This document shows positions 337 through 5,536 of a stretch of 64,000 bases of DNA, piece after piece. The first letter of the stretch is position 1. The number at the start of each line of letters is the position of its first letter. Location of the stretch: NCBI GenBank assembly GCA_031732795.1, contig JAVMKC010000075.1, forward strand, positions 347-64,346, written 5' to 3'. The DNA comes from Accumulibacter sp. GTDB taxonomy: Bacteria; Pseudomonadota; Gammaproteobacteria; Burkholderiales; Rhodocyclaceae. The position numbers and the translations under genes are program-made. The notes beneath the pieces were generated by a model that saw nothing but the letters and a program-made list of their open reading frames with translations, had not been told where the DNA came from and did not search any database.

Positions 337-2046
337 TCAACCGATGGTGAACATCAGTGAAGTGGCGCCAGAATTGAGCGCCACGCTGATCGGTAATTGA
401 TGCGTCGTCGGTCCCCAGAACTGGCGCGGGCCTGGTGAAGCAAACAGGTCGCTGGCGGCCCACGCTTCACGGCGCGAAACGAAGTACTGCATGGCCGGCG
501 AATCCATCTTCACCAGAGCTTTTTCGATGACGAATTCGTCTTTGCCGTGCCGGCGTTCGATATTCAGCAAACCGGCCAGGGGAATCGCTTGCGGCGTTCC
601 GCCAGAGGTCAGGCCGGTGACCGTGGCCATGTAGCCTGTCCGGCCGTCGAGAATCAGCGAACCGGCGGTCAGACCGAGGTTGTAGGTATAAGCTGCGTCG
701 AACAGCGTCGGCGCGCCGCAGCGGCCTTCGTAGCCGAGGAAGTGACTGTGCGCGGCGAACGGAACCTTGGGATCGATCTCCTTGACCCGTTGCTTGGTCA
801 TATCGATCAGCAATTGTTCGGTGGGGATCAGCGAAACCTGCAGATTGCCGTGCGAATCACGGTCGGCCAGCAGCATATTGACGATGTAGTGCGGCAGCGA
901 CTCGAGCAGGGCGGCGTTGTCAGCGCTCAGCTTACTGCCGATGAAGGTGGCTTTTGCGTCGTTGTCGGTCAGCTCGGCAAACGCCGCTGCGTGATGCGCC
1001 AGTGCGTCGTTCAACTCGGCGATCATCGCGTTCATTTCGGGAATGAATTCGATCAGCCCTTCCGGTGCTAACAGCACGCCGTAGTTCATTCCTTGATGCG
1101 AACGGTTGACGACGACTTGCGCAATGTGGTCGATGATGCTGGCCAGCGACTGTTTCTTGGTGGCGATTTCTTCCGAGATCAAGGCGATCGCCGGTTTGGT
1201 CTGCAGCGCCACTTCGAGGGCGACGTGCGACGCCGAACGGCCCATCAGCTTGACGAAATGCCAATACTTCAGCGATGAACTGGTGTCCTGCAGAATGTTG
1301 CCGACCATTTCGCTATAGATGCGGGTGGCGGTATCGAAGCCGAAAGAGATCGACAACAGATCGCCGATTTGCAGGTCGCCGTCGATGGTTTTCGGAACAC
1401 CGATGACTTGTACCCCCGAACCATCGGCTTTGACGCCGGTGAACAACGATTCGGCCAGCACGGCGGCGTTGGTGTTCGAATCGTCACCTCCGACGACGAC
1501 GATGGCGTCGAGATTGTGCTTGATACAGGTTTCGCGGACTTGCGCGAACTGCTCGTCGGATTTGATCTTGGTACGGTCCGAGCCAAGAAAATCGAAGCCG
1601 CCGGTGTTGATGATGAAATCGACGTTTTGATCGGTGATTTCAAACAGACTACCTTTAAGCAACCCTTTCGGGCCTGCTTTGACGCCGAACAGGGTATTGC
1701 CGGCACCGAGAATCCGTTTCAATCCGCATACCACGTTATGACCGCCCGCAGCCGGACCACCGGAGAACAGGACGGCGACCCGCTTGCCTTGGGATGGGCG
1801 GTTGTTGGTGCCTGATGAACTGAGTACCAGATTGCCGGAGGCGGCGACAGACTGCGGAAATTGCTGTTGCACGGCGGCGCTGTCCTTGGTGCTCAAGACG
1901 CGGCCGGAGTTTTGGAAACTGACTGGCTGTGGTTGATTCGTGGCGCCAAACGCGGCGCAGACGGGGAGCGGAAGTCGGCGGACAGCGGTTTCGAAAATCG
2001 ATCGATGCGCTTCTGTTTGGACGAGTTGTTCGGCCAGGGTGCTCAT
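337..2046 (-). CDS. pfp: Pyrophosphate-dependent 6-phosphofructokinase, long (~560 aa) type
   Basis: 569 aa; PFK motifs SGGPAAGGHNV, GGDDSNTN, PKTIDGD, MGR. Asp in GGDD and Lys in PKTID are the residues that specify PPi rather than ATP. Length matches the long clade. SD-like GAGGA before the ATG. Confidence 0.93.
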   Translation of the reverse strand: MSTLAEQLVQTEAHRSIFETAVRRLPLPVCAAFGATNQPQPVSFQNSGRVLSTKDSAAVQQQFPQSVAASGNLVLSSSGTNNRPSQGKRVAVLFSGGPAAGGHNVVCGLKRILGAGNTLFGVKAGPKGLLKGSLFEITDQNVDFIINTGGFDFLGSDRTKIKSDEQFAQVRETCIKHNLDAIVVVGGDDSNTNAAVLAESLFTGVKADGSGVQVIGVPKTIDGDLQIGDLLSISFGFDTATRIYSEMVGNILQDTSSSLKYWHFVKLMGRSASHVALEVALQTKPAIALISEEIATKKQSLASIIDHIAQVVVNRSHQGMNYGVLLAPEGLIEFIPEMNAMIAELNDALAHHAAAFAELTDNDAKATFIGSKLSADNAALLESLPHYIVNMLLADRDSHGNLQVSLIPTEQLLIDMTKQRVKEIDPKVPFAAHSHFLGYEGRCGAPTLFDAAYTYNLGLTAGSLILDGRTGYMATVTGLTSGGTPQAIPLAGLLNIERRHGKDEFVIEKALVKMDSPAMQYFVSRREAWAASDLFASPGPRQFWGPTTHQLPISVALNSGATSLMFTIG

Positions 2047-2096
2047 TTAATTGATCCTCTTCAGACGGAATGGAGAATGGCGATTGATGTGATGGC

Positions 2097-2118
2097 TATG
2101 GTCTGGATATGGTCTGGA
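2097..2118. repeat. Perfect 11-bp tandem direct repeat upstream of pfp
   Basis: TATGGTCTGGA x2 (2097-2107, 2108-2118). Confidence 0.8.
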
Positions 2119-2150
2119 AACGGCGGTGTCGCTTGTTTTCGGGTTAACGC

Positions 2151-2182
2151 AAAAAAGGCCGGCCCGGACGGGCCAGCCCTTT
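2151..2182 (-). terminator. Intrinsic terminator after fbaA
   Basis: Minus strand GGCTGGCCC-GTCC-GGGCCGGCC followed by TTTTTT. Confidence 0.75.
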
Positions 2183-2200
2183 GGCGATTGTCGGACTGCT

Positions 2201-3925: not shown

Positions 3926-3932
3926 GCCGCCA

Positions 3933-3961
3933 ACGATACCGAAGTCCCGCCAATCGCGCAA
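3933..3961 (-). promoter_or_regulatory. Putative sigma70 promoter giving a leaderless arsR mRNA
   Basis: Minus strand TTGCGC-N17-TATCGT, 7 nt before the ATG; no Shine-Dalgarno present. Confidence 0.45.
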
Positions 3962-4080
3962 AATATTCATCGCGCTTCTGCTACGCCGCTGCCGGCTGAT
4001 CGTCGAAAACAAACGTTCAGGCGTGTATCCGGCTTGCCTCGTCCTGATTTGGAGTTGGTTTTCAGCGTTCCATGCGGAAT

Positions 4081-4109
4081 AAAAAAGGCACCGCCTTGGC
4101 GGTGCCTTT
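4081..4109 (-). terminator. Intrinsic terminator after eno
   Basis: AAGGCACCGC-CTTG-GCGGTGCCTT stem with a 6-T run on the minus strand. Confidence 0.85.
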
Positions 4110-4132
4110 CGGTGAGCCAAAAGCCGAAACGC

Positions 4133-5536
4133 TTAGAAACCTGCGCCTTTGATGGAGTTCAACCCTTTGTATACGGCTTTCTTGCCGAGTTGCTCTTCAA
4201 TGCGCAACAACTGGTTGTATTTGCAGACGCGGTCGGTGCGCGATAGCGAACCGGTCTTGATCTGACCCGCGCCGGTACCAACGGCCAGATCGGCGATGAA
4301 GGAATCCTCGGTTTCCCCGGAACGGTGCGAGGAGATGACGCCATAGCCGGCCTTCTGCGCCATCTTGATAGCATCAAGTGTTTCGGTGACTGTGCCGATC
4401 TGATTGACTTTGATCAGGATTGCATTGGCTGCCTTCATGTCGATACCCTGCTGCAGCCGAGTCGGATTGGTGACGAAGAAGTCATCGCCGACGATTTGTA
4501 CTTTATCGCCAAGTGCCTTGGTCAGCTTGACATAGCCTTCCCAGTCACTCTGATCAAGTCCATCCTCGATCGAGACGATCGGATACTTCTTGCACCACGC
4601 GCTGTAGATGGCAATCATCTCGTCGTCAGTAAACAGTTTGTCGGGATTGGATTTCCAGAACTTGTAGCCTTGGCGGTTGCCTTCGTCAAACAGTTCGGAT
4701 GAGGCGCAGTCGAGAGCAATGGCAATTTGCTTACCCGGCTTGTAACCGGCTGCCGTAATGGCCTGCATGACCACTTCTAGCGACTCTTCATTGGTCAGGT
4801 TGGGGGCGAAGCCACCTTCGTCACCCACGGCAGTGACATGTCCGCCTTTCTTCAGGATCGACTTCAAGGCATGGAAAACTTCGGTGATCCAGCGCAGTCC
4901 TTCCGAGAACGACTCGGCACCGACCGGCATGATCATGAATTCCTGGAAGTCGATCAGGTTGTCGGCGTGCTTGCCGCCATTGATGATGTTGGCCATCGGG
5001 GTTGGCAACGAAAATTCACGGTTTTTGTGGATCTTGCCGATGTATTTCCATAACGGCTGGTTGCTGACATGGGCGCCTGCCATGGTGATGGCCATCGATG
5101 CCCCGAGGATGGCGTTGGCACCAAGATTGGATTTGTTCGGTGTGCCGTCAAGAGCGATCATCGCCTCGTCAAGTTCGCGTTGATCAAGAGGATTCTTGCC
5201 TTTGAGGAGTTTGGCGATTTTGGTGTTAACTGCGTCAACGGCCTTGAGAACACCTTTGCCAAGATAGGTTTTCTTGTCGCCGTCACGCAATTCGCAGGCT
5301 TCAAATTCGCCAGTCGAGGCGCCTGACGGCACAGCCGCGCGCGCCAGAAAACCGTCATCAAGAGTGATGTCGACTTCTACTGTAGGGTTGCCGCGGGAAT
5401 CGAGAATCTGCCGGCCGACAACTTTGGTGATCTTGACGAAATCAGCGGGGGGGGCTGCGATTTCCGCTTCAATTTGTTCTTCATTCGGCATTGCCTCAGC
5501 TTTGTTTGACTTCTTGCCTTTCTTGTCTTTTGCCAT
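4133..5536 (-). CDS. eno: Enolase with an N-terminal extension
   Basis: 467 aa; motifs [71 protein letters not shown] precedes ATG 5536. Confidence 0.97.

What the first reader, a model, noticed from the sequence alone, without database searches (positions are those of the whole stretch)
337..5536. Atypical PPi-based glycolysis module (pfp, type-A fbaA, spirochaete-like eno) next to a betaproteobacterial core locus
Seen: three co-oriented glycolytic genes with one regulator between them, divergent from secG. The PFK has the PPi-specifying GGDD/PKTID residues and the long-clade size. The aldolase is the E. coli-type class II-A enzyme. Established: betaproteobacteria normally keep eno in pyrG-kdsA-eno-ftsB and a type-B class II aldolase near gap-pgk, and long PPi-PFKs are typical of spirochaetes, chlamydiae and plants. 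From memory, the enolase segment [15 protein letters not shown] resembles Treponema enolases. Inference: an old horizontally acquired, reversible, ATP-sparing EMP/gluconeogenesis module. This would matter in a glycogen- or polyphosphate-cycling Rhodocyclales cell, where the glycolytic route is debated.
Basis: partly seen in the sequence, partly recalled or inferred. Interest (0 to 1): 0.65.

Follow-up and report, generated by a model that had tools for sequence, protein, structure and literature searches.

The report
Borrowed second glycolysis genes in Accumulibacter
This Accumulibacter-like wastewater bacterium carries an extra pyrophosphate-using phosphofructokinase, an E. coli-type aldolase and a second enolase beside its ordinary copies. 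They came from different foreign sources at different times, and most of this is already known for the genus.

Summary
On the minus strand lie pfp (337-2046), fbaA (2201-3274), a 120-aa ArsR (3608-3970) and a second enolase, eno2 (4133-5536), divergent from secG-nuo.

The same genome also holds canonical copies: pyrG-kdsA-eno, gap-pyk-fba (type B) and a 379-aa PFK. So this is an extra, foreign-looking set.

It is not one module from one donor:
- Pfp groups with long PPi-PFKs of Spirochaetota, Margulisbacteria and Anaeromyxobacter.
- Eno2 is sister to Brevinematales enolases.
- FbaA is the gammaproteobacterial class II-A type.

Each gene is present in only 4-5 of 89 sampled Rhodocyclaceae genera, and all three only in the window's own genus. 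Only the fbaA-pfp pair is conserved across Accumulibacter. In strain UW-1, eno2 lies about 600 kb away.

The ArsR is most likely a leftover of an arsR / ArsJ-GAPDH arsenate unit that sits beside eno2 in relatives, not a glycolytic regulator.

Oyserman et al. 2016 already listed the UW-1 aldolase and enolase as laterally derived, and later work treats pfp as Accumulibacter's glycolytic PFK.

Possibly new: the donor affinities, acquisition before the Accumulibacter-Propionivibrio split, and a Lys/Ala/Pro-rich tail on Eno2. Interest is modest.

The parts
337..2046 (-). pfp: long-type diphosphate--fructose-6-phosphate 1-phosphotransferase (569 aa)
   Evidence: NF005482 787 bits. GGDD and PKTIDGD motifs. 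419 bits to Borrelia PFP 1KZH with both motifs aligned. Sits in a Rhodocyclaceae clade (100/100) opposite Spirochaetota, Margulisbacteria and Anaeromyxobacter.
2201..3274 (-). fbaA: class II-A fructose-bisphosphate aldolase (357 aa), probably in one operon with pfp
   Evidence: TIGR01520 555 bits. E. coli FbaA 1B57 534 bits. fbaA-pfp adjacency is kept in every Accumulibacter locus that covers the upstream side of pfp. Polytomy with gammaproteobacterial II-A enzymes.
3415..3443 (-). Sigma-70-like promoter match upstream of fbaA
   Evidence: TTGACG-17-GATACT, 9 of 12. This is a consensus match only; the count in the region is not above shuffles.
3394..3499 (.). Two 12-bp palindromes TGAACSGGTTCA flanking the promoter match
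   Evidence: The only two sites in the 64-kb window. No exact copy in any other locus fetched, apart from the four re-fetched copies of this genome's own region.
3608..3970 (-). arsR: 120-aa ArsR/SmtB repressor with a C-terminal CCx6C motif, orphaned
   Evidence: NF033788 59.5 bits. Called as 120 aa on independent contigs. ATG at 3970. In L036, L035 and UW-1 the orthologous neighbourhood holds ArsJ and ArsJ-associated GAPDH.
4085..4097 (-). Terminator-like hairpin with T-run just after the eno2 stop
   Evidence: It suggests that eno2 is its own transcription unit.
4133..5536 (-). eno2: second enolase (467 aa)
   Evidence: TIGR01060 651 bits. 55% identical to the genome's canonical Eno. The Eno2 clade (100/100) is sister to Brevinematales at 98/99, which still holds with 59 added representatives at SH-aLRT 96. 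Catalytic motifs are conserved in the alignment.
5432..5536 (-). Codons for the 35-aa Lys-rich N-terminal extension of Eno2
   Evidence: The alignment shows the extension only in the Eno2 clade. It reaches 60-85 aa of AKKAAPAKK-type repeats in Propionivibrio-type homologues. Solved enolases begin to align at query residues 30-38.
5999..6376 (+). secG, start of the divergent core secG-nuoABCD locus
   Evidence: PF03840. The upstream junction varies among relatives.

Best explanation
The region holds three units on the minus strand: eno2 alone, an orphan arsR, and a fbaA-pfp pair that looks like an operon.

Eno2, FbaA and Pfp are xenologous extra copies of glycolytic enzymes. They coexist with the vertically inherited enolase (pyrG-kdsA-eno), a type-B aldolase (gap-pyk-fba) and a 379-aa PFK.

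They were acquired separately:
- a long PPi-PFK of the Spirochaetota / Margulisbacteria / Anaeromyxobacter type;
- an enolase nearest to Brevinematales;
- a gammaproteobacterial-type class II-A aldolase.

All three also occur in Propionivibrio, and pfp and eno2 in Dentiradicibacter as well. So acquisition most likely predates the Accumulibacter-Propionivibrio split. Genome rearrangement later brought the genes together. In this species, loss of an arsJ-gapdh pair left a compact eno2-arsR-fbaA-pfp cluster. That cluster sits upstream of secG, where the ancestral tpiA has gone.

Inferred function: Pfp catalyses the reversible PPi-dependent interconversion of fructose 6-phosphate and fructose 1,6-bisphosphate. 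With FbaA and Eno2 it would give an ATP-sparing EMP route for glycogen breakdown that can also run in reverse for glycogen synthesis.

Shown here: gene identities, the PPi-type residues, the paralogy, the distributions, the trees and the synteny. Inferred: PPi use in vivo, the physiological role, and expression, which rests on published data for orthologues.
For: - Identities and motifs.
- Canonical paralogues in the same genome.
- Patchy occurrence in 151 Rhodocyclaceae genomes of 89 genera: Pfp in 5 genera, Eno2 in 4, FbaA in 4, and all three only in the window's own genus.
- No Eno2-type enolase in 400 other Pseudomonadota.
- No class II-A aldolase in any listed genome of the same order (at least 20 listed), but present in 32 same-class genomes of 6 families at 56-67% identity.
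- Trees: Pfp, Eno with a shared insertion, FbaA.
- Synteny: fbaA-pfp is conserved in Accumulibacter only; eno2 is variably linked.
- The same arrangement is on at least 24 independent contigs.
- Literature: PMC5148189 lists CAP2UW1_3196 (aldolase) and CAP2UW1_2666 (enolase) as laterally derived and highly expressed. The gene order glgP (2663), two RND genes, then eno2 in UW-1 matches that numbering.
- PMC12766714 reports pfp and fbaA transcripts for strain BATAC285, whose locus is L016.
Against: - Outgroup sampling for Eno2 is thin: two Brevinematales genomes, five other Spirochaetota and coarse 50%-identity representatives. The Eno2 stem is long (0.78), so the sister relationship could be partly a long-branch effect.
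- The FbaA tree is an unresolved polytomy. A gammaproteobacterial donor is suggested, not shown.
- GC content of the cluster (54-58%) is only slightly below the genome's 60.3%.
- No activity or expression data exist for this genome.
- A class I FBPase and a second PFK exist, so the flux share of Pfp is unknown.
Confidence: 0.8

Rival explanations
1. One reading: one old horizontally acquired PPi-glycolysis module (pfp, fbaA, regulator, eno) taken up as a unit from a spirochaete-like donor.
For: The genes are co-oriented and adjacent here. Pfp and Eno2 both have Spirochaetota-phylum nearest relatives.
Against: - FbaA has no close relative in the 7 Spirochaetota genomes searched, only about 30% type-B-like hits, and it is of the gammaproteobacterial II-A type.
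- The Spirochaetota with the closest Pfp are not those with the closest enolase.
- No non-Accumulibacter locus has class II-A fbaA or eno2 near pfp; two Margulisbacteria loci have only a 23-26% aldolase-like hit beside it.
- In UW-1, G124 and G039, eno2 is not found beside fbaA-pfp.
- The three genes have different genus distributions.
Confidence: 0.07
2. Ancient vertical paralogues: the three genes were in the Rhodocyclaceae ancestor and were lost from most genera.
For: All Rhodocyclaceae Pfp sequences form one clade. FbaA occurs in four scattered genera. The cluster's GC content is near the genomic value.
Against: - It requires loss in about 85 of 89 genera for each gene.
- The genes are absent from the other Burkholderiales sampled.
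- The nearest outgroups of Pfp and Eno2 lie in other phyla, while canonical Eno1 sits with the gamma/beta clade.
Confidence: 0.08
3. The ArsR between eno2 and fbaA is a working regulator of the glycolytic genes. For example, it could tie the fbaA-pfp promoter to arsenite, metal or redox signals.
For: - It is retained intact, with an As(III)-type cysteine triad, on all independent contigs, although arsJ-gapdh are gone.
- It sits directly upstream of the fbaA promoter region.
- ArsR orthologues precede fbaA in several Accumulibacter loci.
Against: - In L036, L035 and UW-1 the same arsR neighbourhood carries ArsJ and ArsJ-associated GAPDH, its classical targets.
- Eno2 in Propionivibrio and Dentiradicibacter has no arsR nearby.
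- Many Accumulibacter fbaA-pfp loci have no arsR within 8 kb.
- No ArsR-type operator was identified.
Confidence: 0.12
4. Binning or assembly artefact: the cluster belongs to another organism and was joined to an Accumulibacter contig.
For: pfp lies 683 bp from a contig end. Several public MAGs with this pfp carry implausible taxon labels, such as Ilumatobacteraceae, Thermoguttaceae and Pleomorphomonas.
Against: - The same junction with secG-nuo is found on at least 24 contigs from separate assemblies.
- The adjoining secG-nuoB DNA is 78-79% identical to Accumulibacter genomes.
- Orthologues lie on the complete UW-1 chromosome.
Confidence: 0.02

Closest known systems
Long-type PPi-dependent phosphofructokinase (PFP), e.g. 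Borrelia burgdorferi PFP (PDB 1KZH/2F48); NCBIfam NF005482 / TIGR02477
   Same: About 550-570 aa. Aligns over residues 85-547 at 419 bits. GGDD, PKTID and MGRSASH motifs are conserved. NF005482 is well above its cut-off.
   Different: It sits in a betaproteobacterium beside another PFK. It scores 577.7, just under the TIGR02477 equivalog cut-off of 587.95. Activity is untested.
E. coli-type class II-A fructose-bisphosphate aldolase FbaA (PDB 1B57; TIGR01520)
   Same: 357 aa. 555 bits to TIGR01520 and 534 bits to 1B57. 62-67% identical to the best gammaproteobacterial enzymes (56-67% over all 32).
   Different: The host lineage normally uses the type-B enzyme, which this genome also keeps. Here fbaA is paired with pfp, a pairing seen only in Accumulibacter.
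Laterally derived glycolysis genes of Ca. Accumulibacter phosphatis UW-1: CAP2UW1_3196 aldolase and CAP2UW1_2666 enolase (Oyserman et al. 2016, PMC5148189)
   Same: These are the orthologues: FbaA 92%, Eno2 90%, Pfp 86% identical. That paper also concludes a lateral origin, and it reports high expression.
   Different: - In UW-1, eno2 is about 600 kb from fbaA-pfp and lies near glgP with arsJ-gapdh. Here everything is in one 5.2-kb cluster next to secG, without arsJ-gapdh.
- The paper's main text does not name a PFK.
- It places acquisition at the Accumulibacter ancestor, whereas Propionivibrio shares the genes.
ArsR / ArsJ / ArsJ-associated GAPDH arsenate-resistance unit (NCBIfam NF033734, NF033735)
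   Same: The window's ArsR is orthologous (64-71% identical) to the arsR next to ArsJ-GAPDH in other Accumulibacter genomes. It has a C-terminal cysteine triad.
   Different: ArsJ and GAPDH are missing from the window. Only the regulator remains.
PAKKA / histone-H1-like Lys-Ala-Pro tails, e.g. PhaM of Ralstonia eutropha
   Same: The N-terminal tails of the Eno2 clade consist of AKKAAPAKK-type repeats. In PhaM such a motif tethers PHB granules to the nucleoid (PMC11352279, citing Bresan and Jendrossek 2017).
   Different: Here the tail is fused to an enolase. It is short (35 aa) and partly acidic in this genome. No binding has been shown.

Membership tests
PPi-dependent phosphofructokinase, long clade (PFP) | PFK-family fold and full-length similarity to a characterised long PFP | tested here: met
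   PF00365 135 bits. NF005482 787 bits against a cut-off of 446. 419 bits to Borrelia PFP 1KZH over residues 85-547.
PPi-dependent phosphofructokinase, long clade (PFP) | Asp at the E. coli Gly104 position (GGDD) and Lys at the Gly124 position (PKTID), the residues associated with PPi rather than ATP use (established knowledge) | tested here: met
   VVVGGDDSNT and GVPKTIDGD align to the same motifs in 1KZH.
PPi-dependent phosphofructokinase, long clade (PFP) | Score above the TIGR02477 equivalog cut-off | tested here: not met
   577.7 bits against a cut-off of 587.95. This is a narrow miss; the subfamily model NF005482 is passed clearly.
PPi-dependent phosphofructokinase, long clade (PFP) | PPi-dependent, reversible activity | not testable with these tools
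   Needs an enzyme assay.
Class II-A fructose-bisphosphate aldolase | Score above the TIGR01520 equivalog cut-off, and below the type-B model's cut-off | tested here: met
   TIGR01520 554.9 bits against 347.7. TIGR01521 only 52.9 bits against 496.
Class II-A fructose-bisphosphate aldolase | Zn-ligand histidines of E. coli FbaA (His110, His226, His264; from established knowledge) | tested here: inconclusive
   The motifs THTDHAAKK, FGNVHGVYKPGN and FVFHGGSGS can be read in the translation. No residue-by-residue alignment to 1B57 was printed.
Enolase (phosphopyruvate hydratase) | Both enolase domains and the catalytic and metal-binding motifs | tested here: met
   TIGR01060 651 bits; PF03952 and PF00113. 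The motifs [42 protein letters not shown] and QIKTGS are conserved in the alignment.
Canonical betaproteobacterial enolase (pyrG-kdsA-eno-ftsB orthologue) | Branches with the Rhodocyclaceae/gamma clade and sits in pyrG-kdsA-eno | tested here: not met
   Eno2 is outside the Eno1 clade (100/100) and sister to Brevinematales. The canonical gene is on C101.
As(III)-responsive ArsR/SmtB repressor | Winged-helix metalloregulator domain | tested here: met
   NF033788 59.5 bits against a cut-off of 55; PF12840 50.7 bits.
As(III)-responsive ArsR/SmtB repressor | Adjacent arsenic-resistance genes under its control | tested here: not met
   None in the window. ArsJ and GAPDH are present next to the orthologue in L036, L035 and UW-1.
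Single horizontally transferred operon or module | Same donor affinity, the same taxonomic distribution, and linkage conserved in recipients or donors | tested here: not met
   The trees differ. The genus distributions differ. Only fbaA-pfp linkage is conserved.

The most novel reading that the evidence does not exclude
The Lys/Ala/Pro-rich (PAKKA-like) N-terminal tail is found only on the Eno2 clade of PHA-storing Accumulibacter, Propionivibrio and Dentiradicibacter. It may tether this borrowed enolase to a polyanionic or granule surface: the nucleoid, polyphosphate or PHA granules. Part of the xenologous PPi-linked glycolysis would then be spatially coupled to the storage polymers that define the PAO/GAO lifestyle.
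Probability: 0.1. Interest if true: 0.6.

Novelty: new member of a known kind. Interest (0 to 1): 0.3.

Why it matters
Accumulibacter drives biological phosphorus removal. Its anaerobic energy budget depends on how glycogen is broken down.

A PPi-dependent PFK would save one ATP per hexose and make the step reversible. It would also tie glycolysis to the cell's pyrophosphate and polyphosphate economy.

The analysis shows that the genus's EMP pathway is a mosaic, assembled piecemeal from several donors. These genes are shared with the glycogen-accumulating Propionivibrio. That links them to glycogen cycling rather than to polyphosphate storage as such.

This refines published work rather than overturning it. 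Which paralogue carries the flux remains open and can be tested.

Tried and rejected
- The search of 50%-identity representatives with Eno2 was too coarse, because enolases are too conserved. The best full-length representative, a Ruminococcus enolase, is 61% identical. Those sequences served only as extra outgroups.
- Percent identity alone cannot place Eno2. It is 58-63% identical to many Pseudomonadota enolases and 59-65% to Spirochaetota ones. Trees were needed.
- The 'fossil tpiA' reported by another reader at 5890-5986 got no support. tblastn with Propionivibrio TpiA gave E = 0.2-2.
- The idea that Eno2 belongs functionally to the arsJ-gapdh unit was dropped, because Eno2 has unrelated neighbours in Propionivibrio and Dentiradicibacter.
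- The idea that Pfp is the only gluconeogenic route was dropped, because a class I FBPase is present.
- The AlphaFold model of Eno2 was poor: mean pLDDT 59 from a shallow alignment. The low confidence of residues 1-30 is therefore not informative.
- The supplements of Oyserman 2016 are not held.
- The Python machine was lost, so no AU tests or further trees could be run.
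Full report
**What is there**

The minus strand of window 337-5536 carries four ORFs:

- pfp, 337-2046, 569 aa
- fbaA, 2201-3274, 357 aa
- an ArsR-family regulator. It was listed as 170 aa, but independent gene calls make it 120 aa (3608-3970).
- a second enolase, eno2, 4133-5536, 467 aa

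secG and nuoA-D follow divergently on the plus strand.

Family assignments are clear:

- Pfp scores 787 bits to NF005482 (PPi-PFK) against a cut-off of 446.
- FbaA scores 555 bits to the class II-A equivalog TIGR01520, and only 53 bits to the type-B model.
- Eno2 scores 651 bits to TIGR01060.
- The regulator just passes the ArsR/SmtB model NF033788.

Pfp has GGDD and PKTIDGD. These align to the same motifs of the solved Borrelia burgdorferi PPi-PFK 1KZH, at 419 bits over residues 85-547. By established knowledge, these are the positions that separate PPi- from ATP-dependent PFKs.

The same gene order occurs on at least 24 contigs from separate public assemblies, so it is not an assembly artefact.

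**Organism and paralogues**

The window is contig C75 of a 3.63-Mb, 60.3% GC genome. Close homologues of all three enzymes come from Candidatus Accumulibacter (85-96% identity) and Propionivibrio (75-88%). The adjoining secG-nuoB DNA is 78-79% identical to Accumulibacter genomes.

- eno in pyrG-kdsA-eno on C101
- a type-B aldolase (TIGR01521, 603 bits) in gap-pyk-fba on C78
- a 379-aa PFK of the 'mixed' group, with GGDG and PKTIDND, on C57

Eno2 is only 55% identical to the canonical enolase, and FbaA only 24% to the type-B aldolase. The cluster is thus a second, divergent set.

**Distribution**

I searched an even sample of 151 Rhodocyclaceae genomes from 89 genera.

| Gene | Genomes | Genera |
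|---|---|---|
| Long Pfp | 10 | 5 |
| Eno2-type enolase | 7 | 4 |
| Class II-A aldolase | 7 | 4 |

The genus sets differ, and all three genes co-occur only in the window's own genus.

In 400 other Pseudomonadota genomes no Eno2-type enolase was found; the best match was 63% identical. Class II-A aldolase was absent from every listed genome of the same order (at least 20 are listed). It was present in 32 same-class genomes of 6 gammaproteobacterial families at 56-67% identity.

**Phylogeny**

*Pfp* (60 rows, careful search). All Rhodocyclaceae sequences form one clade (100/100). A monophyletic Accumulibacter subclade (100/100) is nested among Propionivibrio-like sequences. The other side of the tree consists of Spirochaetota, Margulisbacteria, Firestonebacteria, Brevinematales and Anaeromyxobacter, at 59-69% identity.

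*Enolase* (54 rows):
- Eno2 of the window, UW-1, Propionivibrio and Dentiradicibacter forms a 100/100 clade on a long stem (0.78).
- That clade is sister to the two Brevinematales enolases (98/99).
- The canonical enolases of the same genomes form a separate 100/100 clade, joined at moderate support (93/87) to same-class (gammaproteobacterial) enolases.
- The pairing with Brevinematales survived the addition of 59 diverse representatives (SH-aLRT 96).
- It is backed by a shared insertion and motif, [27 protein letters not shown].

*FbaA*. It falls in an unresolved polytomy with gammaproteobacterial II-A enzymes. The seven Spirochaetota genomes searched have nothing closer than about 30%.

The three genes therefore do not share one donor.

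**Synteny**

The fbaA-pfp adjacency is present in every Accumulibacter locus that covers the upstream side of pfp. It is absent from every Propionivibrio, Uliginosibacterium and Spirochaetota locus. The two Margulisbacteria loci have only a 23-26% aldolase-like hit next to pfp.

Eno2 is upstream of fbaA only in some Accumulibacter genomes (L028, L030, L035, L036). In UW-1 it lies at 3.07 Mb against 3.68 Mb for fbaA-pfp. In two further genomes of the genus it lies elsewhere on the chromosome (G124) or on a different contig (G039).

Between eno2 and arsR, L036 and L035 carry ArsJ (562-568 bits) and the ArsJ-associated GAPDH (547-548 bits). UW-1 has the same two genes (563 and 549 bits) beside eno2. 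The window lacks both.

Hence the regulator 'between the glycolytic genes' is best read as the orphan of an arsenate-resistance unit. Its C-terminal CCGGNPEAC motif fits an As(III)-type site. It is not a dedicated glycolytic regulator.

In Propionivibrio and Dentiradicibacter, eno2 has unrelated neighbours.

The position next to secG is also lineage-specific:
- Propionivibrio keeps the ancestral tpiA-secG order.
- UW-1, G124 (which has an apparent transposase ORF there, judged from its sequence) and strain SSD3 each have something different upstream of secG.

**Transcription units**

A terminator-like hairpin follows eno2 (4097-4085). A promoter-like site precedes fbaA (3443-3415). This suggests eno2 alone and fbaA-pfp as an operon. 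Both are consensus matches only.

**Function**

The best-supported reading has three parts:
- a reversible, PPi-dependent PFK step
- a class II-A aldolase
- a second enolase, all serving EMP glycolysis and gluconeogenesis in a glycogen-cycling cell

A class I FBPase is present and so is another PFK. Pfp is therefore not indispensable in either direction, and its share of the flux is unknown.

Published work reports high expression of the UW-1 orthologues (PMC5148189). It also reports pfp and fbaA transcripts in strain BATAC285 (PMC12766714), whose locus is L016.

**Relation to what is known**

Oyserman et al. 2016 (PMC5148189) list fructose-bisphosphate aldolase CAP2UW1_3196 and phosphopyruvate hydratase CAP2UW1_2666 among laterally derived glycolysis genes at the Accumulibacter ancestor.

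The UW-1 gene order glgP (their 2663), two RND genes, then eno2 fits 2666 = Eno2. Proportional chromosome position fits 3196 = FbaA. Both assignments are inferences.

Their main text names no PFK. The UW-1 record's pfp has a frameshift near residue 541, which may be why.

Points that may add to the literature:
- the separate donor affinities
- the presence of all three genes in Propionivibrio, and of pfp and eno2 in Dentiradicibacter. This would place acquisition before the Accumulibacter ancestor and tie the genes to glycogen cycling rather than to polyphosphate storage.
- the Eno2 tail

**The Eno2 tail**

All Eno2-clade proteins have an N-terminal extension that is absent from Brevinematales. 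All 60 solved enolases listed begin to align at query residues 30-38.

In this genome the extension is 35 aa. In Propionivibrio-type homologues it is 60-85 aa of AKKAAPAKK-type repeats.

It resembles the PAKKA motif by which PhaM ties PHB granules to the nucleoid (PMC11352279). Its role here is unknown. An AlphaFold model was too poor to help.

**Verdict**

This is a real and correctly identified gene set. The lateral origin is supported, but the genes arrived piecemeal rather than as one module. The regulator is most likely unrelated to glycolysis. Most of the story is already in the Accumulibacter literature. Interest is modest.

**Limits**

- Outgroup sampling for Eno2 and FbaA is thin.
- No AU tests were run, because the Python machine was lost.
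- There are no expression or activity data for this genome.

Noticed in passing
window 5432-5536 (-); also P0208, P0191, P0160, P0199, L088, L089: Eno2-clade enolases carry a Lys/Ala/Pro-rich, PAKKA- or histone-H1-like N-terminal tail. It is 35 aa here and up to about 85 aa in Propionivibrio-type homologues. It is absent from Brevinematales, and none of the 60 solved enolases listed covers it.
   Followed up: partly
window 3608-3970 (-); L036 2431-5434; L035 2464-5442; L214 12197-14592: The ArsR is an orphan. In other Accumulibacter genomes the same neighbourhood holds ArsJ and ArsJ-associated GAPDH between eno2 and arsR. The window has lost both.
   Followed up: yes
G000 contig C71 (L210 5844-8016); C78 11812-15838: The genome's only detected tpiA is 43% identical to Propionivibrio TpiA. 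It sits right after a pgk, and both best match the Thermotoga-type bifunctional PGK/TIM model, next to iscS-hscA. The canonical gap-pyk-fba cluster has no pgk between gap and pyk. More of the EMP pathway therefore looks xenologous.
   Followed up: partly
window 5537-5998: The ancestral tpiA-secG order, kept in Propionivibrio 5N011, is gone here and in UW-1, G124 and SSD3. A claimed tpiA fossil at 5890-5986 is not supported by tblastn (E = 0.2-2).
   Followed up: partly
L037 8001-10070 (UW-1, NC_013194.1): The pfp of the UW-1 reference record departs from all orthologues after about residue 541 and runs on to 689 aa. This is a frameshift or a sequencing error.
   Followed up: partly
window 1-336 and the 346 bases before it (C75 1-683); L215-L219 ends: Every contig shown that carries this pfp (and the window's own) ends about 610-770 bp downstream of it, which points to a repeat there. 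The sequence holds a short stretch (…DPAKNVFAIHGE…) that, from memory, resembles the N-terminus of some IS transposases. This was not tested.
   Followed up: no
window 3394-3405 and 3488-3499: Two TGAACSGGTTCA palindromes flank the fbaA promoter-like site. They are the only ones in the window, but no exact copy exists in any other locus fetched, apart from the four re-fetched copies of this genome's own region.
   Followed up: partly
G000 C57 403-1542 (L211): The second PFK (379 aa; TIGR02483 'mixed' group, 438 bits) combines GGDG with PKTIDND, so its phosphoryl donor cannot be read from the sequence.
   Followed up: no
L111, L112 (Propionivibrio 5N370 and 5N011): These genomes carry a third, very divergent enolase-like gene that groups with the Firestonebacteria enolase (100/100).
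   Followed up: no
L020, L051, L054: Short contigs labelled Ilumatobacteraceae, Pleomorphomonas and Thermoguttaceae carry Accumulibacter- or Propionivibrio-type pfp at 76-87% identity. They are probably mis-binned.
   Followed up: no
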